A DNA stretch of 64,000 nt from Trypanosoma brucei (Eukaryota). Of the stretch, positions 19,882 to 45,299 are shown piece after piece. The notes below the pieces were generated by a model. It worked only from the letters and a program-made list of their open reading frames with translations. It ran no database searches and was not told where the DNA came from. The stretch covers positions 192,001 through 256,000 of the forward strand of contig AL929603.2 of the NCBI GenBank assembly GCA_000002445.1. The letters are read 5' to 3'. The number at the start of each line of letters is the position of its first letter. Position 1 is the stretch's first letter. Both the position numbers and the translations under genes were made by a program.

Positions 19882-22083
19882 CCGCTAAAAGTGTGCGGCG
19901 TAAGTTCTATTTTACTTTCTACCGACTGCTACTACTGCTACCCGCAACCTTCTCAAGCATTATATTTTGTTTTAAACACTCCCGCACATCCGTCACACGA
20001 CACCCCTCCACGCCACCGCTCAGAGCAACACGCCGCGCAACATGAGACCATAAGGTTCTCGGTATCCATGCGGCACTGGGGGCAAAAGCGGTTCGTGTAT
20101 GATTTAGAACAGATAAATTAAATGAACATAAACAAGAGAGGGGAATAATAAAACATAAAAAGAAAAAAGGGAAGAAGAGGAAAGGAGAGGGGGGGGAAGA
20201 AAATAATCAGGACGGTCCCGTATGGTACGGACAGTGCAAGGATGAGTTGCCGTGAAAATATGGGGAAAAGCAGGACAACAGACGTGAGCGACTTCCGCCA
20301 TTGATGATCACATAAGTGACCAAAGGCATTCATTCATCACACGGACTGCGCAACGCATATAAATGCTCCCGTTTCCCGAATCCAACAAACAATCACATCA
20401 CACCGTAGGGTTACCGACGGCAACTACAGCGACTACCAGCTCGCTTCTTGTAAATTACTGCGAGGTGAGACTCGGGGCATATATACCTTGTGCAAAGAGT
20501 AACGCAGATATAGCAGCCGTTATCAAAAGAGTGAATATCCATCCGAGGTACATTTTCCCAACCATCATCCATCGCACCTTGCGGAATCCACAATCCATAA
20601 TACTGATAGCCACAACAGCACCTGTGATGCAGTGTGTTGAAGAGACGGGAATACCGAAGGCGGAACACAGTGACACGACAAGAGCAACGGAAAGTTCTGC
20701 TGAAAACCCACGGCTAGGAGTAATCTTCGTAATGCGTTCCCCAAGCAACCGCATGATTCCAACACCCAGCGTCGCGAGACCAACCACTAACCCAGCTCCA
20801 CCAAGAACCAATATCCATAATGGTACATCGTTCTCTTCTACCACTTGTTGGTTGATATAAATGGAGTACATGGCGGAAAATGGGGCAATGGCGTTACTCA
20901 CATCGTTGGCACCATGTGCGAAGGATGCACAAGCAGCCGTAAATACCTGAAGGTAACGAAACACATACTCCACACGTTCATCATATATTTGCACATCAAA
21001 TTTCAATGCTTCATCAACGACACCCGGTGTGGTCAGTCCACTGGCATTATTTGCAGGGTTTTCTTTAGCTGTTGGAGAGTCGCTGGTTGGCTCGCTCGAT
21101 GGTGGGACTATGCGATTCGCAGTATCAACAGGACCTTCCACCGCTGCCCCCACTCCAGCAGCATTCTCCGATATGGCACCCGCATCTCCTGATATTTCCG
21201 GCGCGGTATTCATCCCTGTTTCAGCCCTTTCCCGCTCAGCTCTTTCAGTTATCAACCTCACACGGCGTCTCAGAAGTGGGATACAAGCCGCAGAAATGGA
21301 GGCAGCCCCAAGTCCAATGAGGGCAGCAACCCATGACGCCTTCGCAGGTCCCCAGTGTAAGCGAGCCTTAGCTCCCTTAAATAGCACAAAGAATGACTCC
21401 AGGAAAAATGTCACTCCGACAATTAATGGAAGGGCAAACAAAGCGCGGTTCACGGAGTTGGCAGGGCGCAGTACAACGAGCCGCAACAATGCATACAGCG
21501 ACGCAGCCACTGCGCCAGCAAACATTGGTGAAATGAACCATGACGCAATGATCGGGGCGACGCCAGTAACATACGGAAATTCATCGATCTTCTTAGCAAA
21601 GGAAACAGCGCCAAAACCACCGTACACAAGCGCAAAACCAATTATAGCACCCGCAATGCTATGAGTTGAAGACACGGGAAGGCTCATCATGGTGGCGAAT
21701 AACAACCAAATGAAGGTTGCACTCAATGCGCACATCATACCGTACATCAGCACATATGGTTCATTTGCAAATGTCATTGGATTCGCAATACCACCTGATA
21801 TTGTTGAGGTTACTTCAGACCCAAGAGAAACGGCACCCACAAACTCACAGATGGAGGCGAGTATAACAATTTGCCACAGGTTGAGCACTCGCGAGCCATA
21901 CGTTGTACCAAAGGAATTCGCGAGGTCATTCATACCAACACCACAGCCGGTGAGGAACGAAACGATCCCACCGACAATAATGACCCATAAGTATGGATGC
22001 ACCATGATGAAATATGGTATTCACTTACTTCTTTCTCCTTGTTTACAATAATCTTATAGCTTAAGGCCAGCACGTAACTTACT
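19882..22083. repeat. Direct repeat copy 1 (~2.2 kb: 570 bp 3' flank, phosphate transporter gene, ~80 bp 5' flank)
   Basis: Near-identical to 23589..25789 (offset 3707 bp). Boundaries ccgctaaaagtgtgcggcg (left) and aacttactaat (right). Confidence 0.85.
20455..22005 (-). CDS. PiT-family (PHO-4 superfamily) inorganic phosphate transporter, copy 1 (516 aa)
   Basis: N-terminal GVGMNDLANSFGT and internal-repeat GANDVSNAIAPF signatures of PiT Na/Pi symporters. About 12 TM segments with a large central hydrophilic loop. Confidence 0.85.
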   Translation of the reverse strand: MVHPYLWVIIVGGIVSFLTGCGVGMNDLANSFGTTYGSRVLNLWQIVILASICEFVGAVSLGSEVTSTISGGIANPMTFANEPYVLMYGMMCALSATFIWLLFATMMSLPVSSTHSIAGAIIGFALVYGGFGAVSFAKKIDEFPYVTGVAPIIASWFISPMFAGAVAASLYALLRLVVLRPANSVNRALFALPLIVGVTFFLESFFVLFKGAKARLHWGPAKASWVAALIGLGAASISAACIPLLRRRVRLITERAERERAETGMNTAPEISGDAGAISENAAGVGAAVEGPVDTANRIVPPSSEPTSDSPTAKENPANNASGLTTPGVVDEALKFDVQIYDERVEYVFRYLQVFTAACASFAHGANDVSNAIAPFSAMYSIYINQQVVEENDVPLWILVLGGAGLVVGLATLGVGIMRLLGERITKITPSRGFSAELSVALVVSLCSAFGIPVSSTHCITGAVVAISIMDCGFRKVRWMMVGKMYLGWIFTLLITAAISALLFAQGIYAPSLTSQ

Positions 22084-23588
22084 AATGCGAGTAGTTTTTA
22101 ACCCTTGTCTAAAGATGTCGAGCAGTATGGAAAGGGCAGAAAAGTATTGAGGTACTGATGGAAAATGTACGCACTTATTTATTTTTACATGAATTCATTT
22201 TGTCTTGTTAGTTGTACTTGTAACGGCACTACCTTTTGTCGCAAAAGCAACTGTTGCGGTGAATACTTCATGGACTAAATGTTATCGAGAGGGGAATTAA
22301 TGAGAACATTACGCTACGACGTACTTTACTTTCGATCTCTTTCCTTCCCTTACTTGCAACAACCACGTTCCGGGTCACGTCATTTTCTGAGTGTTTATCC
22401 ACAGCAGGTAGTATTTTTTTTTCCCCCACTCCAAAGTTTCTACAGAAATATAAAGCTGTGAAACCGCACGAGGAAAAGTGAAACAAACAAAAAACGAGAC
22501 GAGCGGTTCAGTGTTGCAGCGGTATGTGGCGGGACCGAAAGTCCCCCCTCCTCTTTTCTCCGTGATTCCTTATTCAGTAACAAGTGAAGAGGAAGTTTGT
22601 AAACATATATAAATGTAAATAAATATATATATCTGCTTTTTTTTTAATAAAATATTCATTTATTTGAAAAGAGGGGGAAGGAAGGGAGGATGATGCCGGG
22701 AACACAGTTTTAAAGTGCGGACAGTAATCCGTATGTTTTTTTTTCTGAGTCCAACACTTTCAATTTGCACAGCCGTGCATTCACCAACGCCTGTGCGTGC
22801 GCGTTTGCGTCCGCGTGTCCAGTTATTTCGCTTCATATTATGGCACCACAATAACTGCACGCGAAACACAAAACACGAAGGAGGTCACGTGTCCCTCAAA
22901 CCGATCATCCGACAACCAAGTAAAGAAAAGCACAAAAAAAAACAAAACACAGAACAACAAAATAGCAACGTCCGCAAAACAGACTGCCGTCACACACACT
23001 CACACACACACAAGCACGAAAAGAAAAAAAAGAGAGAAGTAGAAGAAGAAAGAAAGAACAAAATGAGAAGATGCAACCAACCGTAGTTTATCACCATATA
23101 AAAAAAGGACGTGCCGAGAACACACAAGTTACTTACTCCTATTTATTTTTTTTTAAATGCCTCCAGCTCGTTTCGCATCACCTCATCACCTTCCAGGCTG
23201 TTGTCGCTGCTGCCACAGTTAATAATTACACCCCATCATCCTCAAAAAAGAAAAAAAGAAAAAAGAAGAAAAACCCTGCCAGTGTTAATGTTATTACATG
23301 ACTCTAATGGCTAACAGCCCTTGTCTCTCTCGTTTTCGCATACTCATCCTTCCGCCACCCAAAACATTGCCGCATCCTACGCAAGTAACATGCTACTTCA
23401 TCCCTTGCCGCTCATTCATGAAACAACGTAACGAGAAATCGTGACGCAGCGCAACAATACAGAAGAACGGAAGGAATAAAAGAAAAAAGGGCAATGCACC
23501 TGCGATTAAATGGAAAGCAGACACTTGGTGGGAACAATAAAAAACAAAAAAAAAATTACTTACTACAACTTTTACCGACCTGCAGCGC

Positions 23589-25789
23589 CCGCTAAAAGTG
23601 TGCGGCGTAAGTTCTATTTTACTTTCTACCGACTGCTACTACTGCTACCCGCAACCTTCTCAAGCATTATATTTTGTTTTAAACACTCCCGCACATCCGT
23701 CACACGACACCCCTCCACGCCACCGCTCAGAGCAACACGCCGCGCAACATGAGACCATAAGGTTCTCGGTATCCATGCGGCACTGGGGGCAAAAGCGGTT
23801 CGTGTATGATTTAGAACAGATAAATTAAATGAACATAAACAAGAGAGGGGAATAATAAAACATAAAAAGAAAAAAGGGAAGAAGAGGAAAGGAGAGGGGG
23901 GGGGGAAGAAAATAATCAGGACGGTCCCGTATGGTACGGACAGTGCAAGGATGAGTTGCCGTGAAAATATGGGGAAAAGCAGGACAACAGACCTGAGCGA
24001 TTTCCGCCATTGATGATCACATAAGTGACCAAAGGCATTCATTCATCACACGGACTGCGCAACGCATATAAATGCTCCCGTTTCCCGAATCCAACAAACA
24101 ATCACATCACACCGTAGGGTTACCGACGGCAACTACAGCGACTACCAGCTCGCTTCTTGCAAATTACTGCGAGGTGAGACTCGGGGCATATATACCTTGT
24201 GCAAAGAGTAACGCAGATATAGCAGCCGTTATCAAAAGAGTGAATATCCATCCGAGGTACATTTTCCCAACCATCATCCATCGCACCTTGCGGAATCCAC
24301 AATCCATAATACTGATAGCCACAACAGCACCTGTGATGCAGTGTGTTGAAGAGACGGGAATACCGAAGGCGGAACACAGTGACACGACAAGAGCAGCGGA
24401 AAGTTCTGCTGAAAACCCACGGCTAGGAGTAATCTTCGTAATGCGTTCCCCAAGCAACCGCATGATTCTAACACCCAACGTCGCGAGACCAACCACTAAC
24501 CCAGCTCCACCAAGAACCAATATCCATAATGGTACATCGTTCTCTTCTACCACTTGTTGGTTGATATAAATGGAGTACATGGCGGAAAATGGGGCAATGG
24601 CGTTACTCACATCGTTGGCACCATGTGCGAAGGATGCACAAACGGCCGTAAATACCTGAAGGTAACGAAACACATACTCCACACGTTCATCATATATTTG
24701 CACATCAAATTTCAATGCTTCATCAACGACACCTGTCATACTTAGTCGACTCATATTTTTCGATTGGTACTCAGTTGTTGGAGAGTCGCTGGTTGGCTCG
24801 CTCGATGGTGGGACTATGCGATTCGCAGTATCAACAGGACCTTCCACCGCTGCCCCCACTCCAGCAGCATTCTCTGATATGGCACCCGCATCTCCTGATA
24901 TTTCCGGCGCGGTATTCATCCCTGTTTCAGCCCTTTCCCGCTCAGCTCTTTCAGTTATCAACCTCACACGGCGTCTCAGAAGTGGGATACAAGCCGCAGA
25001 AATGGAGGCAGCCCCAAGTCCAATGAGGGCAGCAACCCATGACGCCTTCGCAGGTCCCCAGTGTAGATGAGAGTCCGCTCCCTTAAATAGCACAAAGAAT
25101 GACTCCAGGAAAAATGTCACTCCGACAATTAATGGAAGGGCAAACAAAGCGCGGTTCACGGAGTTGGCAGGGCGCAGTACAACGAGCCGCAACAATGCAT
25201 ACAGCGAAGCAGCCACTGCGCCAGCAAACACTGGTGAAATGAACCATGACGCAATGATCGGGGCGACGCCAGTAACATACGGAAATTCATCGATCTTCTT
25301 AGCAAAGGAAACAGCGCCAAAACCACCGTACACAAGCGCAAAGCCAATTATAGCACCCGCAATGCTATGAGTTGAAGACACGGGAAGGCTCATCATGGTG
25401 GCGAATAACAACCAAATGAAGGTTGCACTCAATGCGCACATCATACCGTACATCAGCACATATGGTTCATTTGCAAATGTCATTGGATTCGCAATACCAC
25501 CTGATATTGTTGAGGTTACTTCAGACCCAAGAGAAACGGCACCCACAAGCTCACAGATGGAGGCGAGTATAACAATTTGCCACAGGTTGAGCACTCGCGA
25601 GCCATACGTTGTACCAAAGGAATTCGCGAGGTCATTCATACCAACACCACAGCCGGTGAGGAACGAAACGATCCCACCGACAATAATGACCCATAAGTAT
25701 GGATGCACCATGATGAAATATGGTATTCACTTACTTCTTTCTCCTTGTTTACAATAATCTTATAGCTTAAGGCCAGCACGTAACTTACT
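23589..25789. repeat. Direct repeat copy 2
   Basis: See copy 1. Differences include G-run length (20185 vs 23891) and two clustered patches inside the CDS. Confidence 0.85.
24164..25711 (-). CDS. PiT-family inorganic phosphate transporter, copy 2 (515 aa)
   Basis: Same signatures as copy 1. Differs in a 15-aa loop patch (TTEYQSKNMSRLSMT vs TAKENPANNASGLTT), in GADSHLHW vs GAKARLHW, and in a few point changes. Confidence 0.85.
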   Translation of the reverse strand: MVHPYLWVIIVGGIVSFLTGCGVGMNDLANSFGTTYGSRVLNLWQIVILASICELVGAVSLGSEVTSTISGGIANPMTFANEPYVLMYGMMCALSATFIWLLFATMMSLPVSSTHSIAGAIIGFALVYGGFGAVSFAKKIDEFPYVTGVAPIIASWFISPVFAGAVAASLYALLRLVVLRPANSVNRALFALPLIVGVTFFLESFFVLFKGADSHLHWGPAKASWVAALIGLGAASISAACIPLLRRRVRLITERAERERAETGMNTAPEISGDAGAISENAAGVGAAVEGPVDTANRIVPPSSEPTSDSPTTEYQSKNMSRLSMTGVVDEALKFDVQIYDERVEYVFRYLQVFTAVCASFAHGANDVSNAIAPFSAMYSIYINQQVVEENDVPLWILVLGGAGLVVGLATLGVRIMRLLGERITKITPSRGFSAELSAALVVSLCSAFGIPVSSTHCITGAVVAISIMDCGFRKVRWMMVGKMYLGWIFTLLITAAISALLFAQGIYAPSLTSQ

Positions 25790-26080
25790 AATACCGTGTA
25801 ACGGTATTTCTTTCGGAAGTAGTTCGAAACATGAAATGAAGAAATTAGGAGATGAGCGCGCATAATTGGGAAACGTAAATTTTTATATCCTGTGTATTAA
25901 AAATGGAGTAGCATCGCAATTATTGCTTGTTTTTGTCGCGAACAGTAGCAAAGAGCCTTAAGAGGGGAAATTGGTGCAAAATGTATGTTCTGTTTGATTG
26001 ATCTTAACTTCCTCATATATCTTTCTATGGCGGTGAGTGCTCTTGTTTTCATTTTGGCGTTGTCTCCTGTGTTAGTTATA

Positions 26081-28726: not shown

Positions 28727-31700
28727 CTATTCTCGCATAAGATCAGCGACGCTACACTGTTCCTTGATGAAAGTAGCACGAACCATTTCACTTCCCTCTA
28801 CACTGAACATGAACAGGCAATGCTTCAAGGAGCCAGAAAGAATATTGAGCAACATCTTCCATTCATTAGAGAGCCATTGCAAACCGACCAACTCCTCCGG
28901 TGGGGTCCCTGAGACATCGGAGGTAATTTCCACCACGTGCGATTGAGTGAGAAGCCGCCACCAGCACTCTTCGTGAGGTGTCTGCCAATCTTCTAATTGT
29001 TTAATGCGAGCCAAGTAATAATCCGCAAAAATCTCGTCCACTGTTAAGGCGCATGCTCGTTTCAATGGAATACACTGCTCCAATAATGAATGAAGCACGG
29101 AAGGAGATCTTACCTTGGTTTGAGCGCATTGTTTTGCGGTGGCACCAAATTGAATATCAGCCTCAAAGTACACAAGGCTCTGAGAAAAGTCCGAGGGGGA
29201 CACTACAAACTTTCCACTTCCAGAGACGAGAGTGCTGGGACGGCCACCCAAAATCTCAATGCATTCGGGTTTGTCAGAGCCCTGGCACTTGAGAAGCCGA
29301 AATCCCACAATGTTGCCAAATACATGACGCCGTGGGCTAGCCTTGACATTCGAGGACCTTAAATCCTCTACCTGTTCTTCTTCACTGCTTAAGGTACGTG
29401 CTGCACTTGTTTCTGAAACCGTAATACTCTGCTCAACAGGGGTAGATGCTTCCTGGCGTAATTGATACCGTGGAGACGGCTGCGCTGTGGCTGCAGGATT
29501 AGGTAACTCATCCCCTCCAACCAGTTCTCTCGACAGTCGACATATATCGGCCCGAGCTTCCTCACTCAACGTCCGCATTCGTAGCAGCTCCTCAGAACGG
29601 GCAATAATAGGCCTACTTGACTTCGCCATCCCACGAATTTTCCCAAGTGACTCAACAACACCGCGAAGGAGCGGCTCAGCAGGACGGCTGTAAACCTTCG
29701 TGTACTCATTCGCCAGTACGTGTATGCAATCGGGTCCCAAGTCCTCCGCGCAACGTATAAAAGAAGCATTCTGCACAATAACAGGTGTGAATGGTATTGA
29801 TGGCAAAGCAAGCACAATCTCTTTTGAGCCCGTGGCATGTGGGACATCAATCATAAAGTAGGAAGCCGGAACACATCCAGGTTTCCATCCGTCATTTAAG
29901 GCCACGATAATATGTGAGTTGACCGTGTCCACACTCTTGGTGCCGACGAACAAGCCAGCAAAATCGATGGCATCACCTGTCTCTGTTTTTGGGGACACAT
30001 CTTCAGCTGAGCGCAAAGGTTGCCTCACAAACCCCTTACGCGGCGGTGAGACTATGCTATACCGAAGAGGGCTCCGAGAGTACAAAACTGTCGTCCGCTG
30101 GAAGGGGTGACCAGGTCGGAAGCGTGAAGGGGTTACGGAGAAAACGACAATCTCAGCTCCCTCCGGTGGAAAATCACACGAATGTTCCTCCAAATCCCCC
30201 GCCGGACAGTTGGCACCGCAATCATCCCATATTTGCAAGAGGACGTCCCCCTGTCGCTCACAAGACAACAAAAACGATGTCAGACGTGAAAGTTGTCGGT
30301 CACTTTTTCCTTCAAACGGAGCAACAGCTCCGCGTGCCATACATTCCTGGAAACTTAGCTGCGCCAATAAACTCCTCACAATTTTCAACGCACCACCTGT
30401 GCTGCCTCTTGTGTCGCCAGTTCGCGCACCCTTAAATGTTTTCTCAAGGAAAAAGGGCGGAAGCACGCGCTCCACTCGCCCTTTCAAACAAGGTACCAAA
30501 CCACCAAGCATATCCATAGCGGAAGGCAGCAGTGTCGGCAAACAAGTATGATAGAGACCTAGAGGTGAGGAAGGTCCCACAGGTTGTGTGCAGTTGTAGT
30601 TAATGGAGAGGAGCACTTCATCTTTGCATTCTAGTGGAGAACAACAGTCTCTCCTCAGCATCCTCGCACCGCAAGTAACAATCTTCTGACCACACCGCAG
30701 GGTTCCATTACGAACTAAGTTCGTTAATGGAATATCAAGAGACACTTTAACGTGGTAAAACCCATCGGAAACCACTGCCGTGCAGGTGTGAGGAGTAAGG
30801 CGCTCCTCAAAAGATACCGACACTACCCAGACTACCACCAGTGAGGCTGCTTGAACGTCCCCTTCCGCAATCAAACGCAAAGCAGGCCGTTTGCCCTCAA
30901 CATACTCGTGATTATATTTAAAACACATGTGAAGCAAAGTATGTGCGACAGAAAACACGGGAAGGGGTGGATCAATGTGTAATGTGAGTCCCCGCAACTT
31001 CAGAAGCGTGGACGTCAACATTTGAAGACACCACGCATCTGGGCAGCCCCGTGGAGAAGCCCCCAAGGTAAGCATGGCCTTACGAAAATTTGCCGATGGT
31101 ATGAACTCACACTCCGCTGGTATTTCCAGTAACTTCAGAAGTTCAGGTGAACACCCAAATTGCTTAAACAAAAAGTTTCCTCGCACAATCTCGTCAATTG
31201 AGGGAGGTACCGTCATCGATAATGAGCGAAACGTGAAAATGTCAAACGAAAGATGTCGGGGGGTTCGACCTACTTCCGACCCCTCACCCTCTGAACTCGG
31301 CATGTGGGACGCCGATGGCACCGCTTCCCCTACTCCTTTCGCAACCGCTCCTTTATTCTTAGCAAAAGGAACCACAAACGGCTTTCTTGCTAGCTTGGAT
31401 GATGACAATGGCGATGATGATGCTGATTTACGGTGTGTACGTGGCGTCCTCTTCGACAAGGAGGCACCTGCTCCCGAAATGGGTTTAGCAGATGAAGCTG
31501 CGTTCGCACTTGCTACTTGCAGTGACGACTCTGATACAGTTACGGTTTTACCAGCGGCAGATACAAAAAGCGTTGGAACATCTGTGGAATTTCCTTGTAC
31601 CGCAGTGCTCTCTTGGCCATTTTCAGTATTCATTCGTGCCCTTGCTACTTGCAGTGACGACTCTGATACAGTTATGGGTTTACCAGCGGCAGATACAAAA

Positions 31701-33673
31701 AGCGTTGGAACATCTGTGGAATTTCCTTGTACCGCAGTGCTCTCTTGGCCATTTTCAGTATTCATTCGTGCCCTTGCTACTTGCAGTGACGACTCTGATA
31801 CAGTTATGGGTTTACCAGCGGCAGATACAAAAAGCGTTGGAACATCTGTGGAATTTCCTTGTACCGCAGTGCTCTCTTGGCCATTTTCAGTATTCATTCG
31901 TGCCCTTGCTACTTGCAGTGACGACTCTGATACAGTTATGGGTTTACCAGCAGCAGATACAAAAAGCGTTGGAACATCTGTGGAATTTCCTTGTACCGCA
32001 GTGCTCTCCTGGCCATTTTCAGTATTCATTCGTGCCCTTGCTACTTGCAGTGACGACTCTGATACAGTTATGGGTTTACCAGCAGCAGATACAAAAAGCG
32101 TTGGAACATCTGTGGAATTTCCTTGTACCGCAGTGCTCTCTTGGCCATTTTCAGTATTCATTCGTGCCCTTGCTACTTGCAGTGACGACTCTGATACAGT
32201 TATGGGTTTACCAGCGGCAGATACAAAAAGCGTTGGAACATCTGTGGAATTTCCTTGTACCGCAGTGCTCTCTTGGCCATTTTCAGTATTCATTCGTGCC
32301 CTTGCTACTTGCAGTGACGACTCTGATACAGTTATGGGTTTACCAGCGGCAGATACAAAAAGCGTTGGAACATCTGTGGAATTTCCTTGTACCGCAGTGC
32401 TCTCTTGGCCATTTTCAGTATTCATTCGTGCCCTTGCTACTTGCAGTGACGACTCTGATACAGTTATGGGTTTACCAGCAGCAGATACAAAAAGCGTTGG
32501 AACATCTGTGGAATTTCCTTGTACCGCAGTGCTCTCCTGGCCATTTTCAGTATTCATTCGTGCCCTTGCTACTTGCAGTGACGACTCTGATACAGTTATG
32601 GGTTTACCAGCAGCAGATACAAAAAGCGTTGGAACATCTGTGGAATTTCCTTGTACCGCAGTGCTCTCCTGGCCATTTTCAGTATTCATTCGTGCCCTTG
32701 CTACTTGCAGTGACGACTCTGATACAGTTATGGGTTTACCAGCGGCAGATACAAAAAGCGTTGGAACATCTGTGGAATTTCCTTGTACCGCAGTGCTCTC
32801 TTGGCCATTTTCAGTATTCATTCGTGCCCTTGCTACTTGCAGTGACGACTCTGATACAGTTATGGGTTTACCAGCGGCAGATACAAAAAGCGTTGGAACA
32901 TCTGTGGAATTTCCTTGTACCGCAGTGCTCTCTTGGCCATTTTCAGTATTCATTCGTGCCCTTGCTACTTGCAGTGACGACTCTGATACAGTTATGGGCT
33001 TACCAGCAGCAGATACAAAAAGCGTTGGAACATCTGTGGAATTTCCTTGTACCGCAGTGCTCTCTTGGCCATTTTCAGTATTCATTCGTGCCCTTGCTAC
33101 TTGCAGTGACGACTCTGATACAGTTATGGGTTTACCAGCGGCAGATACAAAAAGCGTTGGAACATCTGTGGAATTTCCTTGTACCGCAGTGCTCTCCTGG
33201 CCATTTTCAGTATTCATTCGTGCCCTTGCTACTTGCAGTGACGACTCTGATACAGTTATGGGTTTACCAGCAGCAGATACAAAAAGCGTTGGAACATCTG
33301 TGGAATTTCCTTGTACCGCAGTGCTCTCCTGGCCATTTTCAGTATTCATTCGTGCCCTTGCTACTTGCAGTGACGACTCTGATACAGTTATGGGTTTACC
33401 AGCAGCAGATACAAAAAGCGTTGGAACATCTGTGGAATTTCCTTGTACCGCAGTGCTCTCTTGGCCATTTTCAGTCCCGTACGTGCGGTCCCTCCTCGGC
33501 TGAATTCTCGTTTCCCTCTCCTGCAGTGGACTTTTTCCTTGTACACTTTCTCCAGACCGACTGCGTTGTCTCTTGGGGGCATCGGAGCGGCACTTCGTAC
33601 GGTTCCGTTGCGGCGTATCGGAATTTTGGCGCGCTCCAGAGTTGCTGCCTTGTCTTCCTTTTTTGTGGCTCAT
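28727..33673 (-). CDS. BRCA2: BRCA2 homologue with 15 tandem BRC repeats and C-terminal DNA-binding (helical/OB) region. ORF open to 33934, but the 5' 87 codons are UTR-like, so start placed at MSHKKGRQ
   Basis: Fifteen copies of a 44-aa unit ...TENGQESTAVQGNSTDVPTLFVSAAGKPITVSESSLQVARARMN, each containing the BRC core F-x-x-A-x-G-K (LFVSAAGK..V.ESSL). Long C-terminal region follows. Expanded BRC number is a known feature of T. brucei BRCA2. Confidence 0.85.
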   Translation of the reverse strand: MSHKKGRQGSNSGARQNSDTPQRNRTKCRSDAPKRQRSRSGESVQGKSPLQERETRIQPRRDRTYGTENGQESTAVQGNSTDVPTLFVSAAGKPITVSESSLQVARARMNTENGQESTAVQGNSTDVPTLFVSAAGKPITVSESSLQVARARMNTENGQESTAVQGNSTDVPTLFVSAAGKPITVSESSLQVARARMNTENGQESTAVQGNSTDVPTLFVSAAGKPITVSESSLQVARARMNTENGQESTAVQGNSTDVPTLFVSAAGKPITVSESSLQVARARMNTENGQESTAVQGNSTDVPTLFVSAAGKPITVSESSLQVARARMNTENGQESTAVQGNSTDVPTLFVSAAGKPITVSESSLQVARARMNTENGQESTAVQGNSTDVPTLFVSAAGKPITVSESSLQVARARMNTENGQESTAVQGNSTDVPTLFVSAAGKPITVSESSLQVARARMNTENGQESTAVQGNSTDVPTLFVSAAGKPITVSESSLQVARARMNTENGQESTAVQGNSTDVPTLFVSAAGKPITVSESSLQVARARMNTENGQESTAVQGNSTDVPTLFVSAAGKPITVSESSLQVARARMNTENGQESTAVQGNSTDVPTLFVSAAGKPITVSESSLQVARARMNTENGQESTAVQGNSTDVPTLFVSAAGKPITVSESSLQVARARMNTENGQESTAVQGNSTDVPTLFVSAAGKTVTVSESSLQVASANAASSAKPISGAGASLSKRTPRTHRKSASSSPLSSSKLARKPFVVPFAKNKGAVAKGVGEAVPSASHMPSSEGEGSEVGRTPRHLSFDIFTFRSLSMTVPPSIDEIVRGNFLFKQFGCSPELLKLLEIPAECEFIPSANFRKAMLTLGASPRGCPDAWCLQMLTSTLLKLRGLTLHIDPPLPVFSVAHTLLHMCFKYNHEYVEGKRPALRLIAEGDVQAASLVVVWVVSVSFEERLTPHTCTAVVSDGFYHVKVSLDIPLTNLVRNGTLRCGQKIVTCGARMLRRDCCSPLECKDEVLLSINYNCTQPVGPSSPLGLYHTCLPTLLPSAMDMLGGLVPCLKGRVERVLPPFFLEKTFKGARTGDTRGSTGGALKIVRSLLAQLSFQECMARGAVAPFEGKSDRQLSRLTSFLLSCERQGDVLLQIWDDCGANCPAGDLEEHSCDFPPEGAEIVVFSVTPSRFRPGHPFQRTTVLYSRSPLRYSIVSPPRKGFVRQPLRSAEDVSPKTETGDAIDFAGLFVGTKSVDTVNSHIIVALNDGWKPGCVPASYFMIDVPHATGSKEIVLALPSIPFTPVIVQNASFIRCAEDLGPDCIHVLANEYTKVYSRPAEPLLRGVVESLGKIRGMAKSSRPIIARSEELLRMRTLSEEARADICRLSRELVGGDELPNPAATAQPSPRYQLRQEASTPVEQSITVSETSAARTLSSEEEQVEDLRSSNVKASPRRHVFGNIVGFRLLKCQGSDKPECIEILGGRPSTLVSGSGKFVVSPSDFSQSLVYFEADIQFGATAKQCAQTKVRSPSVLHSLLEQCIPLKRACALTVDEIFADYYLARIKQLEDWQTPHEECWWRLLTQSHVVEITSDVSGTPPEELVGLQWLSNEWKMLLNILSGSLKHCLFMFSVEGSEMVRATFIKEQCSVADLMRE
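31504..33487 (-). repeat. BRC repeat array: 15 x 132 bp, nearly identical at nucleotide level
   Basis: Period measured directly (e.g. ccattttcagtattcattcgtg at 31617 and 31749). The three variable sites I translated (gcg/gca, cttggcc/cctggcc, ggtttacc/ggcttacc on the plus strand) are all synonymous in the minus-strand frame. Confidence 0.9.
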
Positions 33674-34020
33674 AATAATCAGAATTTGACTTCCGAGCAG
33701 ATTAATTAAACAACACACGGGGAATTTCAGGATGGAAGAAAAGGAGGAGGAGGAGGAGGAGCCGAAAAAGAAGAAAAAGGGGACCGGAATGTAGTGCAAA
33801 CAAAGTACTAAAAGGCATTCAATTGCACGCGTGTGGAGGTGGAGGTGGTGAGAATGAGCGAGCAGAAACGTCGGTGCAAAGGGCACGCACCGGGACAACA
33901 ACGGTATACACTTATGTATACTCAGTATCAACAAGCGCAGATGTGAATATTCGCTTCCGCGACAGCAAACAGTACCGCAGAAAGGGGGAAAAGGGCCCTA
34001 ACAGATGCCCACCTTTCTTG

Positions 34021-40503: not shown

Positions 40504-41826
40504 TTAAAGAGAGCTCCACCGGTTAGAAAGAGTTCCAGTACCTGCAGAGGCATACGACACAACCGCCGACTTTTCGTCCAATACTGCAACGCCGGGAAGC
40601 GTTTTGCCCTCGAGGAGTTCCAAAGACGCACCACCACCAGTTGAAACATGAGACATGCGCTTCGCCTCACCGCTCAACTCAGCTGCACTTGCGCTGTCAC
40701 CACCACCGATGATACTCATGAGTCCATGCTCGTGAGTTCCTCGACCCATGGCTTTCGCAATTGCAAATGTACCTTTGGAATAAGGAACCATTTCAAATAC
40801 ACCCATGGGACCGTTCCAAATGGCGCTCTTACACTTCCCAATCGTCTGAACATATTTTTCAATAGTCTTGGGACCAATATCCAGAGCCATATGTCCTTCA
40901 GGGATGTTTTGATCCTCAGTTATCAATGGAGAATCCACAGCTTTGAATTCCGTGTGGCAAACATGATCAATTGGAAGAATAACCTGCACCTTGCGGTCCT
41001 CCGCCTTCTTCAGCAGGGATCGAGCAAATTCAAGTTTACTTTCCTCGCACTTCGATTTTCCAATGCTGTAACCCTGAGCCTTCAGAAATGTGTATGCCAT
41101 TGCACCACCAATTAAGAGATAATCGATGCGCTGCAACATGTTATCCAGAAGTTGGATCTTGTCGCTCACTTTCGCTCCACCAACGATAGCAACCAGCGGA
41201 CGCGGCGGGTTACCAAGTACCTTAGCGAAGTATGAAATCTCCTTCTCCATCAAATAACCGGCAGCACCGTTGCCCAAAATCTTTGGAATTCCGGTCATGG
41301 TAGCACTGTCACGGTGAGCTGTACCAAAAGCATCACTGATGTAAACATCACCATATGACGCAAGGATCTTGGCCATGGCTTCACGTTCTTTTGCCTTCTT
41401 GCTGCCCTCTTCTTTGTAAAAGCGTACATTTTCAAGCAGAACAACATCGCCCGGAGACATCTTAGAGACGACATCTGCAGCATTCAGGCAGTCAGGTGCG
41501 AATGTGACGGGCCTCAATAGCAGTTCGCTGAGGCGCTTGGCTACCGGTTTGAGTGTTGCCTTCTGTTGGAACCCGGGAACACCGCCAGTGCTCCGTATTT
41601 TGTCAGCTTGCGCCATGGGAATACCTTTCGGCCTCCCGAGGTGGCTCATGAGAACACAACTGCCGCCTTCTGTGAGAACCTTCTTGAGCGTTGGCAGAGC
41701 TGATCGGATTCGGTAGTCGTTGGTGATCTTACCGTTTTTCACGGGAACATTAAAGTCAACACGGATAAGAACCTTCTTTCCCTTAAGATCGCATTCATTA
41801 ATGCTCTTCTTCTCGTTAAGGGTCAT
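40504..41826 (-). CDS. PGKC: phosphoglycerate kinase C (glycosomal isoform with ~20-aa C-terminal extension ending SSL)
   Basis: Full PGK fold (N-terminal FNVP..., ...GGGAS... C-domain). 440 aa with extra C-terminal tail ...SAVVSYASAGTGTLSNRWSSL relative to the 420-aa copy. Position and orientation match the known T. brucei PGKA-PGKB-PGKC tandem. Confidence 0.9.
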   Translation of the reverse strand: MTLNEKKSINECDLKGKKVLIRVDFNVPVKNGKITNDYRIRSALPTLKKVLTEGGSCVLMSHLGRPKGIPMAQADKIRSTGGVPGFQQKATLKPVAKRLSELLLRPVTFAPDCLNAADVVSKMSPGDVVLLENVRFYKEEGSKKAKEREAMAKILASYGDVYISDAFGTAHRDSATMTGIPKILGNGAAGYLMEKEISYFAKVLGNPPRPLVAIVGGAKVSDKIQLLDNMLQRIDYLLIGGAMAYTFLKAQGYSIGKSKCEESKLEFARSLLKKAEDRKVQVILPIDHVCHTEFKAVDSPLITEDQNIPEGHMALDIGPKTIEKYVQTIGKCKSAIWNGPMGVFEMVPYSKGTFAIAKAMGRGTHEHGLMSIIGGGDSASAAELSGEAKRMSHVSTGGGASLELLEGKTLPGVAVLDEKSAVVSYASAGTGTLSNRWSSL

Positions 41827-42175
41827 CTTGTATCACAATTACTTATTAGGTGGAAAAACGTATCTCCGCAGCAATTATGCTTTGATATCACCAAAGAGCT
41901 GAACCTACAGTCCAAACGATTTGAGTGAAAAAGAGTGAAGTAACAAAGATAAACACAAAGTTACACAGTAGAACGATCAAAAAGATAGAAATATCATAGC
42001 GGTTGAAATATTACTGTGCAATCGATACATAGTACCAAAAAATAAAATGAGTAGAAAAAACATAAATGTTATCCTAAAAAAAAAATAATAGTCACGTACG
42101 AACCAATACCTAACCAACAAATAAAAAGGACTAAAAAACACAATTCCATAAAACAGGCCCGTAACAGGATGAATA

Positions 42176-43438
42176 TTACTCCTTTTCGTCCAATACTGTA
42201 ACGCCGGGAAGCGTTTTGCCCTCGAGGAGTTCCAAAGACGCACCACCACCAGTTGAAACATGAGACATGCGCTTCGCCTCACCGCTCAACTCAGCTGCAC
42301 TTGCGCTGTCACCACCACCGATGATACTCATGAGTCCATGCTCGTGAGTTCCTCGACCCATGGCTTTCGCAATTGCAAATGTACCTTTGGAATAAGGAAC
42401 CATTTCAAATACACCCATGGGACCGTTCCAAATGGCGCTCTTACACTTCCCAATCGTCTGAACATATTTTTCAATAGTCTTGGGACCAATATCCAGAGCC
42501 ATATGTCCTTCAGGGATGTTTTGATCCTCAGTTATCAATGGAGAATCCACAGCTTTGAATTCCGTGTGGCAAACATGATCAATTGGAAGAATAACCTGCA
42601 CCTTGCGGTCCTCCGCCTTCTTCAGCAGGGATCGAGCAAATTCAAGTTTACTTTCCTCGCACATGGATATTCCAATGCTGTAACCCTGAGCCTTCAGAAA
42701 TGTGTATGCCATTGCACCACCAATTAAGAGATAATCGATGCGCTGCAACATGTTATCCAGAAGTTGGATCTTGTCGCTCACTTTCGCTCCACCAACGATA
42801 GCAACCAGCGGACGCGGCGGGTTACCAAGTACCTTAGCGAAGTATGAAATCTCCTTCTCCATCAAATAACCGGCAGCACCGTGACCCAAAATCTTTGGAA
42901 TTCCGGTCATGGTAGCACTGTCACGGTGAGCTGTACCAAAAGCATCACTGATGTAAACATCACCATATGACGCAAGGATCTTGGCCATGGCTTCACGTTC
43001 CTCAGTGCTCTTGCTGCCCTCTTCTTTGTAGAAGCGTACATTTTCAAGCAGAACAACATCGCCCGGAGACATCTTAGAGACGACATCTGCAGCATTCAGG
43101 CAGTCAGGTGCGAATGTGACGGGTCTCGATAACAATTCGCTGAGGCGCTTGGCTACCGGTTTGAGTGTTGCCTTCTGCTCGAACCCGGGAATACCGCCAG
43201 TGCTCCGCAGTTCTTTGCCTTCAGCCATAGAAACGCCTTTCGGCCTCCCGAGGTGGCTCATGAGAACACAACTGCCGCCTTCTGTGAGAACTTTTTGGAC
43301 GGCTGGAAGAGCTGATCGGATTCGGTAGTCGTTGGTAATATTACCATCATCCAGAGGAACATTAAAGTCAACACGGATAAGAACCTTCTTTCCCTTAAGA
43401 TCGCATTCATTAATGCTCTTCCTCTCTTTTAGTGACAT
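42176..43438 (-). CDS. PGKB: phosphoglycerate kinase B (cytosolic, 420 aa)
   Basis: Canonical-length PGK, over 90% identical to PGKC except the N-terminal 25-70 region and the C-terminus. Confidence 0.9.
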   Translation of the reverse strand: MSLKERKSINECDLKGKKVLIRVDFNVPLDDGNITNDYRIRSALPAVQKVLTEGGSCVLMSHLGRPKGVSMAEGKELRSTGGIPGFEQKATLKPVAKRLSELLSRPVTFAPDCLNAADVVSKMSPGDVVLLENVRFYKEEGSKSTEEREAMAKILASYGDVYISDAFGTAHRDSATMTGIPKILGHGAAGYLMEKEISYFAKVLGNPPRPLVAIVGGAKVSDKIQLLDNMLQRIDYLLIGGAMAYTFLKAQGYSIGISMCEESKLEFARSLLKKAEDRKVQVILPIDHVCHTEFKAVDSPLITEDQNIPEGHMALDIGPKTIEKYVQTIGKCKSAIWNGPMGVFEMVPYSKGTFAIAKAMGRGTHEHGLMSIIGGGDSASAAELSGEAKRMSHVSTGGGASLELLEGKTLPGVTVLDEKE

Positions 43439-43769
43439 ATTTGATTTGTGATCAGATAAGTATATATCGATATATATAGTTTTTTCAAAAAAATAAGAAA
43501 CTCCCTTGTTACAATTTTTTAATGTTTTGAAACAAAAAATACAAGTATGTTGGCTAAGTGAGAAAACGTTGAAAAGAAGTGACTGCGAGACTTGGGCAAG
43601 GGGGATTCGGTTTAAATTTTTGAATCAAAAGACTAAAAACTTCATTATGTACTTCTCAAACAACGTTCACAAATAATAAACGATATACTAAAAGTATTCA
43701 AAACTCCCACGACATCAGAAAAACATAGGGCAGGAGAAAAAAAAAAACAAACCCTTCGCCTGATGTACA

Positions 43770-45299
43770 TTACTCCTTATCATCCAATACTGCAACACCG
43801 GGAAGCGTTTTGCCCTCGAGGAGTTCCAAAGACGCACCACCACCAGTTGAAACATGAGAAATACGTGCAGCTTCACCACAGAGTTCAGCCGCACCCGCAC
43901 TCTCACCACCACCGATGATACTCATGAGTCCACGTTTCTGAGTTCCTCGACCCATGGCTTTCGCAATTGCAAATGTACCTTTGGAATAAGGAACCATTTC
44001 AAATACACCCATGGGACCGTTCCAAATGGCGCTCTTACACTTCCCAATCGTCTGAACATATTTTTCAATAGTCTTGGGACCAATATCCAGAGCCATATGT
44101 CCTTCAGGGATGTTTTGATCCTCAGTTATCAATGGAGAATCCACAGCTTTGAATTCCGTGTGGCAAACATGATCAATTGGAAGAATAATCTGCACCTTGC
44201 GGTCCTCCGCCTTCTTCAGCAGGGATCGAGCAAATTCAAGTTTACTTTCCTCGCACTTCGATTTTCCAATGCTGTAACCCTGAGCCTTCAGAAATGTGTA
44301 TGCCATTGCACCACCAATTAAGAGATAATCGATGCGCTGCAACATGTTATCCAGAAGTTGGATCTTTTCGCTCACTTTCGCTCCACCAACGATAGCAACC
44401 AGCGGACGCGGCGGGTTACCAAGTACCTTAGCGAAGTATGAAATCTCCTTCTCCATCAAATAACCGGCAGCACCGTGACCCAAAATCTTTGGAATTCCGG
44501 TCATGGTAGCACTGTCACGGTGAGCTGCACCAAAAGCATCACTGATGTAAACATCACCATATGACGCAAGGATCTTGGCCATGGCTTCACGTTCCTCAGC
44601 ATTTTCACCGTTTTCTTCGCTGTAGAACCGTACATTTTCAAGTAACATAACATTTCCACGCTTTAACCGCGAAACCTCTACTCTGGCATCCAAGCAGTCG
44701 TGAGCAAAATATACATGTTGGCCGAGTAATTCGGCAAGCCTTACAGCAACTGGACGAAGACTGTATTGCTCTTCGTAGCCTGCACTAACACTCATCTGCG
44801 GTAACGCACTGTCTTTGTTTTCGTTTAAGTACTGCATAAGCAAAGATTTCTTCTCGTCCTCAGGAAGGCGCGCAAACAGCATTGTTTTTCCAGATTTCAC
44901 CTCAGGTGATATGTGCGTTGCCTCTTCCCGTGCACTGGATTTCGCTAATATTTTAACTTTCTCCTCTCCCGGTAGAACACTAAAAAACGCTGTTTTACCT
45001 TTGTTGTCGTGAAACTGAGCCTCGTGATATCGCCGTCTTATATCTCGCACACCCGCAACCATTGAAACGCCTCTGGGCCGTCCAAGATGGCTCAGGAGAA
45101 TACAAATACCACCCTGATCAATAACCCGCCGTATCGTTGGAATCGCCGCACGGATTCGATAATCGTTAGTAATATGGCCATTTTGCATAGGAACGTTGAA
45201 ATCGACACGCATAAGCACTCGCTTCGCCGTTAACGGCCAAACATCGCCCACAGACTTCTTCAGGCTTATGTTGTTCTTCGCATTCGGTGCAGTGGACAT
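43770..45299 (-). CDS. PGKA: phosphoglycerate kinase A (56-kDa variant, 509 aa, with internal insertion in the N-terminal domain)
   Basis: Divergent N-terminal ~200 aa with ~80-aa insertion (…VRDIRRRYHEAQFHDNKGKTAFFSVLPGEEKVKILAKSS...), then near-identity to PGKB/C over the C-terminal ~290 aa. Confidence 0.9.
   Translation of the reverse strand: MSTAPNAKNNISLKKSVGDVWPLTAKRVLMRVDFNVPMQNGHITNDYRIRAAIPTIRRVIDQGGICILLSHLGRPRGVSMVAGVRDIRRRYHEAQFHDNKGKTAFFSVLPGEEKVKILAKSSAREEATHISPEVKSGKTMLFARLPEDEKKSLLMQYLNENKDSALPQMSVSAGYEEQYSLRPVAVRLAELLGQHVYFAHDCLDARVEVSRLKRGNVMLLENVRFYSEENGENAEEREAMAKILASYGDVYISDAFGAAHRDSATMTGIPKILGHGAAGYLMEKEISYFAKVLGNPPRPLVAIVGGAKVSEKIQLLDNMLQRIDYLLIGGAMAYTFLKAQGYSIGKSKCEESKLEFARSLLKKAEDRKVQIILPIDHVCHTEFKAVDSPLITEDQNIPEGHMALDIGPKTIEKYVQTIGKCKSAIWNGPMGVFEMVPYSKGTFAIAKAMGRGTQKRGLMSIIGGGESAGAAELCGEAARISHVSTGGGASLELLEGKTLPGVAVLDDKE

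What the first reader, a model, noticed from the sequence alone, without database searches (positions are those of the whole stretch)
19882..25789. 2.2-kb direct duplication carrying PiT phosphate transporters with two tightly clustered divergent patches
The two copies are almost identical in nucleotide sequence across the CDS and 570 bp of 3' flank. The exceptions are two short islands. The first is 21015-21060 vs 24722-24764, about 45 bp with many substitutions plus a 3-bp indel, recoding a 15-aa stretch of the large cytoplasmic loop. The second is 21359-21372 vs 25061-25074, recoding KARL to DSHL. Substitutions clustered into patches on a homogenised background suggest gene-conversion tracts with a third, divergent donor, or selection for loop divergence. 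The shared 3' flank implies shared 3'UTR regulation, while the upstream regions (1.5-kb spacer vs 0.3 kb) differ.
Basis: seen in the sequence. Interest (0 to 1): 0.5.

Follow-up and report, generated by a model that had tools for sequence, protein, structure and literature searches.

The report
Tandem phosphate-transporter genes, homogenised except two islands
Two neighbouring copies of a Trypanosoma brucei phosphate-transporter gene are kept almost identical by repeated copy-correction, apart from two tiny very divergent islands in a dispensable linker of the protein; this is a clean but ordinary example of a process already known for trypanosome gene arrays.

Summary
Window 19882-22086 and 23589-25792 are a direct duplication (98.0% identity). 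Each copy carries a PiT/PHO4 phosphate transporter on the minus strand. These are T. brucei TREU927 chr 1 proteins XP_001218761.1 (516 aa) and XP_001218763.1 (515 aa). Of 45 differing columns, 22 lie in 45 bp (patch 1) and 7 in 11 bp (patch 2); no permutation out of 20,000 matched this clustering.

Comparison with T. b. gambiense, two T. equiperdum assemblies, Logan contigs, T. congolense, T. cruzi and T. theileri points to concerted evolution by short-tract gene conversion:
- Five strain-specific substitutions are shared by both copies.
- At least 7 recombination events are needed among 8 sequences.
- In gambiense DAL972, patch 1 is the only difference between the copies.

Patch 1 is paralogue-specific in three assemblies. 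Patch 2 (KAR/DSH) is not: it occurs in either copy. Synonymous sites inside both patches are saturated (pS 0.70-0.75, against 0.013 elsewhere), which equals the brucei-congolense divergence. The patches are therefore old or imported sequence, not recent adaptive point substitutions.

No donor, inversion or template-switch source was found in the window. A third donor is unsupported but not excluded genome-wide. This is a new member of a known kind, of low to moderate interest.

The parts
19882..22086 (-). Repeat unit A (downstream copy in the direction of transcription): 81-bp 5' flank, CDS, 573-bp 3' flank
20455..22005 (-). PiT/PHO4 phosphate transporter CDS, 516 aa. Exact match to XP_001218761.1 of T. 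b. brucei TREU927. From my own knowledge of the chromosome-1 gene order this is Tb927.1.580; the locus tag was not checked with a tool.
   Evidence: PF01384, 370.6 bits against a cutoff of 33.7
19882..20454 (-). Shared 3' flank of copy A (putative 3'UTR). Contains a strong polypyrimidine tract at about 20110-20200.
23589..25792 (-). Repeat unit B (upstream copy in the direction of transcription)
24164..25711 (-). PiT/PHO4 phosphate transporter CDS, 515 aa. Exact match to XP_001218763.1. From my own knowledge this is Tb927.1.600; not checked with a tool.
   Evidence: 375.4 bits
22087..23588 (.). 1.5-kb unique spacer between the two units. No ORF longer than 72 aa on the transcribed strand.
21025..21069 (-). 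Patch 1, A type (codons 313-327, AKENPANNASGLTTP). This is the version closer to T. congolense (25/45 nt identical, against 17/45 for the B type).
24734..24775 (-). Patch 1, B type (T-EYQSKNMSRLSMT; one codon shorter). Found in the upstream copy in TREU927, DAL972 and T. equiperdum OVI.
21360..21370 (-). Patch 2, KAR type (codons 212-216, AKARL). Matches the state seen in outgroups (T. congolense AKARL).
25066..25076 (-). Patch 2, DSH type (ADSHL). Derived at the protein level. Occurs in either paralogue in other strains.

Best explanation
The locus is a two-copy tandem array of PiT (SLC20/Pho89-like, Pfam PHO4) phosphate-transporter genes on T. brucei chromosome 1, transcribed right to left in the window. 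It evolves in concert.

Repeated short-tract gene conversion between the copies, and between alleles, keeps them nearly identical from 81 bp upstream of the ATG to 573 bp past the stop codon. Two very small islands have not been erased. Their divergence is as great as that between T. brucei and T. congolense.

I read them as relics of an older, much more diverged version of one copy or allele, most of which has since been overwritten.

Patch 1 (15 codons of the large hydrophilic linker, just before the C-terminal transport-core repeat) persists as a paralogue-specific mark. Two mechanisms could keep it. A 45-bp block with 19 mismatches and a 3-nt loop may hinder heteroduplex formation across it, since T. 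brucei recombination is impeded by mismatches. Alternatively, the isoform difference may be mildly favoured.

Patch 2 (5 codons in a short inter-helix loop) is simply a segregating haplotype block that conversion still moves between copies.

Both islands lie in the central segment that does not align to the solved bacterial PiT. The corresponding part of human PiT2 is dispensable for transport, so they probably do not change transport chemistry.

Shown: the duplication, the clustering, concerted evolution, the mosaicism, the distribution of patches across strains, and the saturated synonymous divergence.

Inferred: the relic origin, the barrier or selection that keeps patch 1, and functional neutrality.
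For: Duplication and clustering.

Identity of the genes: exact protein matches; Pfam; TmPiT 6L85 aligns to residues 8-207 and 339-504, so both patches fall in the unaligned residues 208-338.

Concerted evolution:
- Sites CDS 120, 213, 657, 710 and 1590 differ between TREU927 and DAL972 but are the same in both copies within each strain.
- The two DAL972 copies differ only at patch 1, 22 of 22 differing columns over 2.2 kb.
- Hudson-Kaplan Rm = 7 among 8 sequences, with 438 incompatible site pairs.
- All four combinations exist: A+KAR, A+DSH, B+DSH, B+KAR.

Syntenic tandem pairs (BRCA2-ASF1-x-PiT-PiT) that are nearly identical within a species but only 60-70% identical between species:
- T. cruzi: 99.6% over 1745 bp.
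- T. congolense: 505 of 515 aa identical, with the second copy starting about 4.3 kb downstream.

Age of the patches:
- Patch 1: pS 0.70, pN 0.38. Patch 2: pS 0.75, pN 0.36. Rest of the CDS: pS 0.013, pN 0.0045.
- brucei vs congolense: whole-gene pS 0.69, loop pN 0.43.
- At the two synonymous positions of patch 2, the DSH type agrees with T. congolense (GCG, CTx). So both types have changed since their common ancestor.

T. congolense paralogues also differ in clusters. One cluster (aa 312-314) aligns with the start of T. brucei patch 1.

Literature:
- Concerted evolution with residual variation is general for T. brucei tandem arrays (PMC1855330).
- T. brucei homologous recombination is impeded by mismatches, and heteroduplex is corrected by short-patch repair (PMC1904282).
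- The human PiT2 large loop is dispensable for Pi transport (PMC3126765).
Against: - Residual similarity between the A and B versions inside the patches is only marginally better than for shuffled sequence (P about 0.05-0.06). Homology of the two versions is therefore not proven, and replacement by foreign sequence of similar length would look the same.
- A 13-bp neutral relic (patch 2) flanked by identical sequence should be erased quickly. Its survival suits a recent complex mutation or import better than an ancient relic.
- T. theileri has a single copy, and the repeat boundaries differ between T. brucei, T. cruzi and T. congolense. The duplications could therefore be independent and young, which would remove the 'old paralogue' source.
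- Patch 1 is not absolutely protected. In T. b. equiperdum GCA_003543875.1 both copies carry the A type.
- The identity of the DAL972 copies may be inflated by consensus collapse. The Logan contigs may be chimeric paths through both copies. The TREU927 sequence may mix the two haplotypes of a diploid.
Confidence: 0.6

Rival explanations
1. Ectopic gene conversion from a third, divergent donor. Short tracts were copied into copy B from another PiT-like sequence elsewhere in the genome, or introgressed from a diverged lineage. This would resemble the short-tract mosaic formation described for VSG genes.
For: - Divergence inside the patches is at the between-species level, with saturated synonymous sites and sharp borders.
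- Segment length and reading frame are preserved.
- In TREU927 both derived patches sit in the same copy.
- Short-tract templated repair from divergent donors is documented in T. brucei for VSGs (PMC13233330, abstract only read).
Against: - No match of 13 nt or more to either patch exists anywhere else in the 64-kb window on either strand; only chance 9-12-mers were found.
- The protein search found no other T. brucei PiT outside the one 90% cluster among the best 120 of 2057 hits.
- The B-type patches resemble no outgroup sequence in alignment A1, and B patch 1 is further from T. congolense than A is (17/45 vs 25/45).
- A donor about 45% diverged overall would lack the flanking homology that T. 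brucei recombination needs (PMC1904282).
Confidence: 0.12
2. In-situ complex mutation. Each patch arose in one event on an already homogenised copy, by error-prone or templated break repair, polymerase template switching or a micro-inversion. The result then spread or was retained.
For: - The changes are extremely dense with razor-sharp borders.
- Patch 2 has 7 changes in 11 bp, inside an otherwise conserved motif that is K-[AS]-R in most of the other trypanosomes aligned (E in T. melophagium and T. grayi; the R is invariant).
- Similarity between the two versions is barely above that of shuffled sequence.
- Patch 2 behaves as a young, still-segregating polymorphism.
Against: - Inverted alignment scores worse than shuffled sequence for both patches.
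- No direct or inverted source sequence lies in the repeat or the window. The best local match to patch 2 is a 7-mer, which is about what chance gives.
- Nineteen substitutions over 45 bp with length nearly preserved is far beyond the usual size of multinucleotide mutations (my own knowledge).
- pN is lower than pS in both patches, and the B type agrees with T. congolense at the two synonymous sites of patch 2. Both suggest ordinary divergence under some constraint.
Confidence: 0.15
3. Recent positive selection for amino-acid divergence of the loop. Point substitutions accumulated in copy B because a different loop sequence is advantageous.
For: - Patch 1 is paralogue-specific in TREU927, DAL972 and OVI, and is the only difference left in DAL972.
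- T. congolense paralogues differ at the aligned position.
- 13 of 15 residues differ.
Against: - pS inside the patches is 0.70-0.75, which is saturated, and pN/pS is about 0.5. Selection on amino acids would not saturate synonymous sites while the neighbouring 90 bp on each side carry no change.
- Patch 2 is not in the large loop and is not paralogue-specific.
- Patch 1 has been lost from the upstream copy in one T. b. equiperdum assembly.
Confidence: 0.06
4. Partial assembly or haplotype artefact. The patches are real sequence, but their assignment to a particular copy reflects mixing of the two haplotypes of a diploid, or collapse of near-identical repeats. This applies especially to patch 2 in TREU927 and to the perfect identity of the DAL972 copies.
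For: - Patch 2 occurs in either copy in different assemblies.
- Outside the patches, reads shorter than about 300 bp cannot be assigned to a copy.
- The Logan contigs equal exactly one repeat unit in length.
- The T. b. equiperdum upstream copy carries frameshifts typical of long-read errors.
Against: - The patch sequences themselves are identical across five independent data sets.
- Patch 1 types sit in the same positions in three assemblies that include unique flanks: TREU927, DAL972 and OVI.
- TREU927 chromosome 1 is finished-grade sequence (my own knowledge).
Confidence: 0.07

Closest known systems
[quoted passage not shown]
   Same: Tandem duplicates transcribed polycistronically. Conspecific copies are far more alike than orthologues. 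Gene conversion both removes and redistributes variation, so different parts of the array give inconsistent relationships. Homogenised UTR-like flanks end at the array edges.
   Different: This two-copy PiT pair is not mentioned in that paper's main text (its supplementary files were not examined). Here the residual variation is concentrated in two islands of 45 and 11 bp with between-species-level divergence. One island is the sole difference between the copies in T. b. gambiense.
T. brucei phosphoglycerate kinase and hexose transporter (THT1/THT2) arrays, as summarised in PMC1855330 section 13
   Same: Tandem arrays in which gene conversion produces chimaeric copies, while isoform-specific segments persist and carry functional differences.
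   Different: For PGK and THT the isoform-specific segments are long and their functional consequences (targeting, kinetics, stage specificity) have been shown experimentally. For the PiT pair the distinct segment is 15 residues of a probably disordered linker, and no functional difference is known.
PiT / SLC20 / Pho89 phosphate transporter family (Pfam PF01384; TmPiT structure 6L85; human PiT1/PiT2)
   Same: Full-length PHO4 domain. Two inverted core repeats, each with a GANDVANA-like signature (GMNDLANS at residues 24-31, GANDVSNA at 365-372). A large variable hydrophilic linker lies between the halves.
   Different: Transport activity, ion coupling and localisation of the T. brucei proteins are untested. 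Reviews state that the genuine T. brucei Pi transporter is still unresolved (PMC13163259). Measured uptake appears H+-dependent rather than Na+-dependent (PMC9860751).
Mosaic VSG formation by short-tract templated repair in T. brucei (PMC13233330)
   Same: Short patches of divergent sequence embedded in an otherwise unchanged gene, in the same organism and using the same recombination machinery.
   Different: That process needs a family of divergent donors, which VSGs have in thousands. No third PiT donor was found here. Only the abstract of that paper was read.

Membership tests
PiT / PHO4 phosphate transporter family (PF01384) | Full-length match to the Pfam PHO4 profile above the gathering score | tested here: met
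   370.6 and 375.4 bits against a cutoff of 33.7, covering profile positions 1-350 of 350 in both proteins.
PiT / PHO4 phosphate transporter family (PF01384) | Two homologous core halves, each with the PiT signature (GANDVANA-like), separated by a variable linker | tested here: met
   TmPiT 6L85 aligns in two stretches, residues 8-207 and 339-504. GMNDLANS and GANDVSNA are visible. The His of SSTHC, equivalent to PiT2 H502 (PMC3126765), is present.
PiT / PHO4 phosphate transporter family (PF01384) | Cation-coupled inorganic phosphate transport | not testable with these tools
   No functional study of these genes was found.
Concerted evolution by gene conversion in a tandem array | Paralogues within a species much more alike than orthologues, at a syntenic duplicated locus | tested here: met
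   T. brucei 98% nt, T. cruzi 99.6% nt, T. congolense 98% aa within species, against 60-70% aa between species. Same flanking genes. Caveat: T. theileri has one copy, so independent duplications are not excluded.
Concerted evolution by gene conversion in a tandem array | Lineage-specific substitutions present in both copies | tested here: met
   CDS sites 120, 213, 657, 710 and 1590 separate TREU927 from DAL972 but are identical in both copies of each strain.
Concerted evolution by gene conversion in a tandem array | Mosaic history (incompatible sites or recombination breakpoints) among copies | tested here: met
   438 incompatible site pairs, Rm = 7 among 8 sequences. The four-gamete test is met for patch 1 against patch 2.
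Concerted evolution by gene conversion in a tandem array | Direct observation of conversion events or tracts | not testable with these tools
   Needs experimental break-repair assays or pedigree/clone sequencing.
Ectopic conversion from a third paralogue | Existence of a donor sequence carrying the patch variants | tested here: not met
   None in the 64-kb window. No other T. brucei PiT among the listed protein hits. The rest of the genome could not be searched at DNA level.
Template-switch / micro-inversion mutation cluster | The patch equals the reverse complement or a nearby copy of local sequence | tested here: not met
   Inverted alignment scores are no better than for shuffled sequence. 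No local source of 10 nt or more within the repeat.

The most novel reading that the evidence does not exclude
Patch 1 may be a selectively maintained, paralogue-specific regulatory module. The two PiT isoforms would be identical transport machines that differ only in a 15-residue cytosolic linker segment. The A type carries a proline-directed T-P site (GLTTPG). The B type carries a basophilic R-x-S site and a tyrosine (EYQ...SRLS).

The two isoforms would then be controlled by different kinases or sorted to different membranes. The island would be held against an otherwise complete homogenisation, as in DAL972. The same linker position would have differentiated independently in the T. congolense pair.

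The motif reading is mine, from the sequence alone, and is untested.
Probability: 0.18. Interest if true: 0.5.

Novelty: new member of a known kind. Interest (0 to 1): 0.27.

Why it matters
The locus is a compact natural record of how gene conversion works in T. brucei. A 2.2-kb unit is homogenised to 0-0.7% divergence. A 45-bp island stays about 45% diverged, and an 11-bp block can be seen moving between copies in different subspecies.

This gives a convenient substrate for measuring conversion tract length and the effect of mismatch density, and MSH2 dependence, at a non-VSG locus.

It also flags a practical point. Short reads, microarray probes and RNAi cannot tell the two PiT genes apart except at patch 1. 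Expression or knock-down data assigned to only one of them actually refer to both.

Reviews say the genuine phosphate transporter of T. brucei is still unidentified (PMC13163259). These two highly expressed, procyclic-enriched genes (PMC2771046, PMC4288722) are obvious candidates. The only stable isoform difference is now pinned to 15 residues.

None of this changes current understanding of trypanosome genome evolution.

Tried and rejected
1. Local donor search. All 9-12-mers of both versions of both patches were searched on both strands of the window. Only chance hits appeared.

2. Micro-inversion or template switch. Reverse-complement alignments scored worse than or equal to shuffled controls. 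A 7-mer (GACTCTC) shared between patch 2 B and the loop 300 bp away is at chance expectation (my estimate: about 2 such matches expected in 4.4 kb).

3. Frameshift-plus-compensation origin of patch 1. Rejected by eye, because the nucleotides themselves differ and the alternative frame of the A type contains TAA.

4. Structure prediction of copy A from the 18-sequence alignment gave an unusable model (mean pLDDT 38.8, pTM 0.27). Only its secondary-structure string was used, as a weak hint: coil at 263-342, short loop at 211-219. No fold search was run.

5. Exact-sequence look-ups of the two TREU927 proteins and of T. congolense P0002 in the contig collection found nothing. I therefore could not test whether the Logan samples also hold an A-type copy. 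The second T. congolense copy was obtained only as protein.

6. Literature search for a functional or evolutionary study of this gene pair returned only expression lists.

7. A possible conserved N-x-S sequon in patch 1 (NAS in the A type, NMS in the B type, NAS in T. congolense) was noted. It is absent from T. cruzi and T. grayi, so it was not pursued.

Full report
**What is there**

The window is part of Trypanosoma brucei brucei TREU927 chromosome 1. The two ORFs at 20455-22005 (-) and 24164-25711 (-) are exact matches to XP_001218761.1 (516 aa) and XP_001218763.1 (515 aa). Both are annotated 'phosphate-repressible phosphate permease, putative'.

Both proteins are full-length members of Pfam PHO4/PiT, scoring 370.6 and 375.4 bits against a cutoff of 33.7. 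They align in two halves to the solved Thermotoga PiT structure 6L85, at residues 8-207 and 339-504.

All genes in this part of the window lie on the minus strand. Copy B (24164-25711) is therefore the upstream gene and copy A (20455-22005) the downstream gene of one polycistron.

**Check of the observation**

BLASTN and repeat finding give one direct duplication: 19882-22086 vs 23589-25792, 98.0% identity, period about 3707 bp. Each unit comprises 81 bp upstream of the ATG, the CDS, and 573 bp downstream of the stop codon. A unique 1.5-kb spacer (22087-23588) lies between the units. It has no ORF longer than 72 aa on the transcribed strand.

A global alignment lists 45 differing columns:
- Patch 1: 22 columns, at 21025-21069 (A) and 24734-24775 (B). 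These are 19 substitutions and a 3-bp indel.
- Patch 2: 7 columns, at 21360-21370 (A) and 25066-25076 (B).
- The rest: 14 isolated substitutions and a GG indel.

No permutation out of 20,000 produced such clusters. Its patch coordinates are off by 5-12 bp.

At the 5' end, homology starts at ATTAG/TAAG. This lies just downstream of unrelated polypyrimidine tracts in both copies.

**Comparison with other strains and species**

I fetched the locus from these sources:

| Locus | Source |
|---|---|
| L001 | T. b. gambiense DAL972 |
| L002 | T. b. equiperdum GCA_003543875.1 |
| L003 | T. equiperdum OVI |
| L004-L007 | four Logan run assemblies |
| L008 | T. congolense IL3000 |
| L009 | T. theileri |
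| L010 | T. cruzi CL Brener |

The table of variable sites shows four things.

1. Five substitutions (CDS 120, 213, 657, 710, 1590) separate TREU927 from DAL972 yet are the same in both copies within each strain. This is the signature of concerted evolution.

2. In DAL972 the two 2.2-kb units differ only at patch 1: 22 of 22 differing columns.

3. Patch 1 is A type in the downstream copy and B type in the upstream copy in both TREU927 and DAL972. It is B type in the upstream copy of OVI, the only copy on that contig. In the T. b. equiperdum long-read assembly both copies are A type.

4. Patch 2 behaves as one block but is not tied to a copy.

| Assembly | Downstream copy | Upstream copy |
|---|---|---|
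| TREU927 | KAR | DSH |
| DAL972 | DSH | DSH |
| T. b. equiperdum | KAR | DS(L) |
| T. equiperdum OVI | not on contig | KAR |
| Logan contigs | combine B-type patch 1 with KAR (copy position unknown) | |

All four combinations of patch types exist. Among eight sequences there are 438 incompatible site pairs, and at least seven recombination or conversion events are required.

**Synteny in other species**

The same arrangement, BRCA2-ASF1-(~300-aa protein)-PiT-PiT, holds two copies in T. cruzi. These are 99.6% identical over 1745 bp, with seven scattered differences and no patches.

T. congolense also has two copies. The second starts about 4.3 kb after the first, and the two proteins differ at 10 of 515 residues. 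T. theileri has one copy.

Between species the proteins are only 60-70% identical. The T. congolense differences are also clustered, at residues 140-154 and 312-314. The second cluster aligns with the start of T. brucei patch 1.

**How old are the patches**

Nei-Gojobori counts:

| Comparison | pS | pN |
|---|---|---|
| Patch 1, A vs B | 0.70 | 0.38 |
| Patch 2, A vs B | 0.75 | 0.36 |
| Rest of CDS, A vs B | 0.013 | 0.0045 |
| Whole gene, T. brucei vs T. congolense | 0.69 | not quoted here |
| Loop, T. brucei vs T. congolense | 0.61 | 0.43 |

The islands therefore carry between-species-level divergence with saturated silent sites. That argues against recent adaptive point substitution. It points to old divergence or to imported sequence.

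At the protein level the A versions are the ancestral-like ones:
- T. congolense has AKARL.
- Most of the other trypanosomes aligned have K-[AS]-R at this position; T. melophagium and T. grayi have E in place of K, and the R is invariant.
- Patch 1 A shares 25/45 nt with T. congolense, against 17/45 for B.

At the two silent positions of patch 2, however, the B type agrees with T. congolense. This suggests that both types have diverged from a common ancestor, rather than B arising from A in one step. These counts rest on 5 and 15 codons and are only indicative.

The direct alignment of the two versions is only marginally better than for shuffled sequence (P about 0.05-0.06).

**Tests of alternative origins**

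- No sequence resembling either version of either patch occurs elsewhere in the window.
- Reverse-complement alignment is no better than chance.
- No further T. brucei PiT homologue appears outside the single 90% cluster among the 120 best hits of the protein search.
- I could not search the rest of the T. brucei genome at DNA level.

**Where the patches sit in the protein**

Both lie in residues 208-338. This is the segment between the two core halves that has no counterpart in the bacterial structure.

In human PiT2 the large intracellular domain can be deleted without loss of transport. Additional removal of the two adjacent transmembrane helices leaves low activity (PMC3126765).

The AlphaFold model was poor (pLDDT 38.8). 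Its secondary structure only weakly suggests that patch 2 is in a short loop between helices (211-219) and patch 1 in a long coil (263-342). Sidedness could not be determined.

**Interpretation**

The locus fits the picture drawn for T. brucei tandem arrays in general: concerted evolution by gene conversion that coexists with, and reshuffles, residual variation (PMC1855330).

T. brucei homologous recombination is impeded by mismatches, and heteroduplex is corrected by short-patch repair (PMC1904282). That offers a mechanical reason why a 45-bp block with 19 mismatches and a 3-nt loop can persist while both flanks are homogenised. It also explains why the history is such a fine mosaic.

My best reading (0.6) is that the two islands are what remains of an older, far more diverged copy or allele. 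Patch 1 is retained as a paralogue mark, either by that barrier or by weak selection. Patch 2 is a segregating block still being moved about.

The rivals, in order of my confidence:
- An in-situ complex mutation (0.15; most credible for patch 2).
- Conversion from an undiscovered third donor (0.12).
- Partial mis-assignment by assembly (0.07).
- Recent positive selection (0.06).

**Caveats**

- The identity of the DAL972 copies may be inflated by consensus collapse.
- The Logan contigs are exactly one repeat unit long and may be chimeric.
- The T. b. equiperdum upstream copy contains frameshifts typical of long-read error.
- TREU927 is diploid, so copy assignment of patch 2 could reflect haplotype mixing.

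**Novelty and interest**

The genes are annotated. They appear in expression lists as highly expressed and procyclic-enriched (PMC2771046, PMC4288722, PMC7821691). No paper in the searched library discusses their mosaic divergence or their function.

Reviews say the genuine T. brucei phosphate transporter remains unidentified (PMC13163259, PMC9860751).

The phenomenon itself is well known. I rate it a new member of a known kind, with interest 0.27.

Noticed in passing
window 28727-33934 (-), repeats at 31374-33521: A 1735-aa ORF containing 15 near-identical 132-bp (44-aa) repeats. These are the BRC repeats of T. brucei BRCA2. The Pfam BRCA2 OB1 domain was called on the orthologous genes in L001, L003, L009 and L010. 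The expansion is already described (PMC2408642). T. theileri and T. cruzi orthologues are 1082 and 1030 aa, that is, unexpanded.
   Followed up: partly
window 52303-53316: A tandem array of a 42-bp unit (about 24 copies), 98-99% identical in the centre and decaying towards both ends. Its coding status and gene were not examined.
   Followed up: no
window 40538-44075: A three-copy tandem array with a 1.6-kb period (spacing 1612 and 1594 bp). The first two copies are about 100% identical and the third 89-92%. This is another candidate for concerted evolution with an edge copy escaping.
   Followed up: no
window 22080-22090 and 25786-25796: The 5' edge of the PiT duplication falls at ATTAG/TAAG, 81 bp before the ATG. 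It lies immediately downstream of unrelated polypyrimidine tracts in both copies. The homogenised unit may therefore begin about at the trans-splice acceptor, so the mature 5'UTRs would be identical while the splicing signals differ. No RNA data were available to check.
   Followed up: partly
window 20110-20200 and 23817-23910: A strong polypyrimidine tract lies inside the shared 3' flank, about 250-340 nt after the stop codon. It could direct polyadenylation upstream and a trans-splice site downstream. The real 3'UTR may therefore be shorter than the 573 bp shared. A 127-138-aa ORF called there in DAL972 (L001 7990-8373; window 23626-24042) is probably spurious.
   Followed up: no
L008 2145-3692 and 6371-6530; proteins P0002 and P0128: The T. 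congolense PiT paralogues also differ in clusters: residues 140-154 (5 of 15) and 312-314 (AAL vs DVS). The second cluster aligns to the start of T. brucei patch 1. The 5' flank plus first 60 nt of the second copy is only 84.7% identical to the first.
   Followed up: partly
L002 6224-8425: In T. b. equiperdum GCA_003543875.1 the upstream PiT copy carries A-type patch 1, a DSL variant of patch 2, and three single-base deletions that truncate the called protein to 353 aa. This is either long-read error or decay of a procyclic-stage gene in a parasite that no longer passes through tsetse.
   Followed up: no
L010 10001-14373: The T. cruzi CL Brener tandem PiT pair is homogenised from -184 to 5 nt before the stop codon, but not in the 3' flank. 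In T. brucei it is the 3' flank that is shared for 573 bp. The extent of homogenisation is therefore species-specific.
   Followed up: partly
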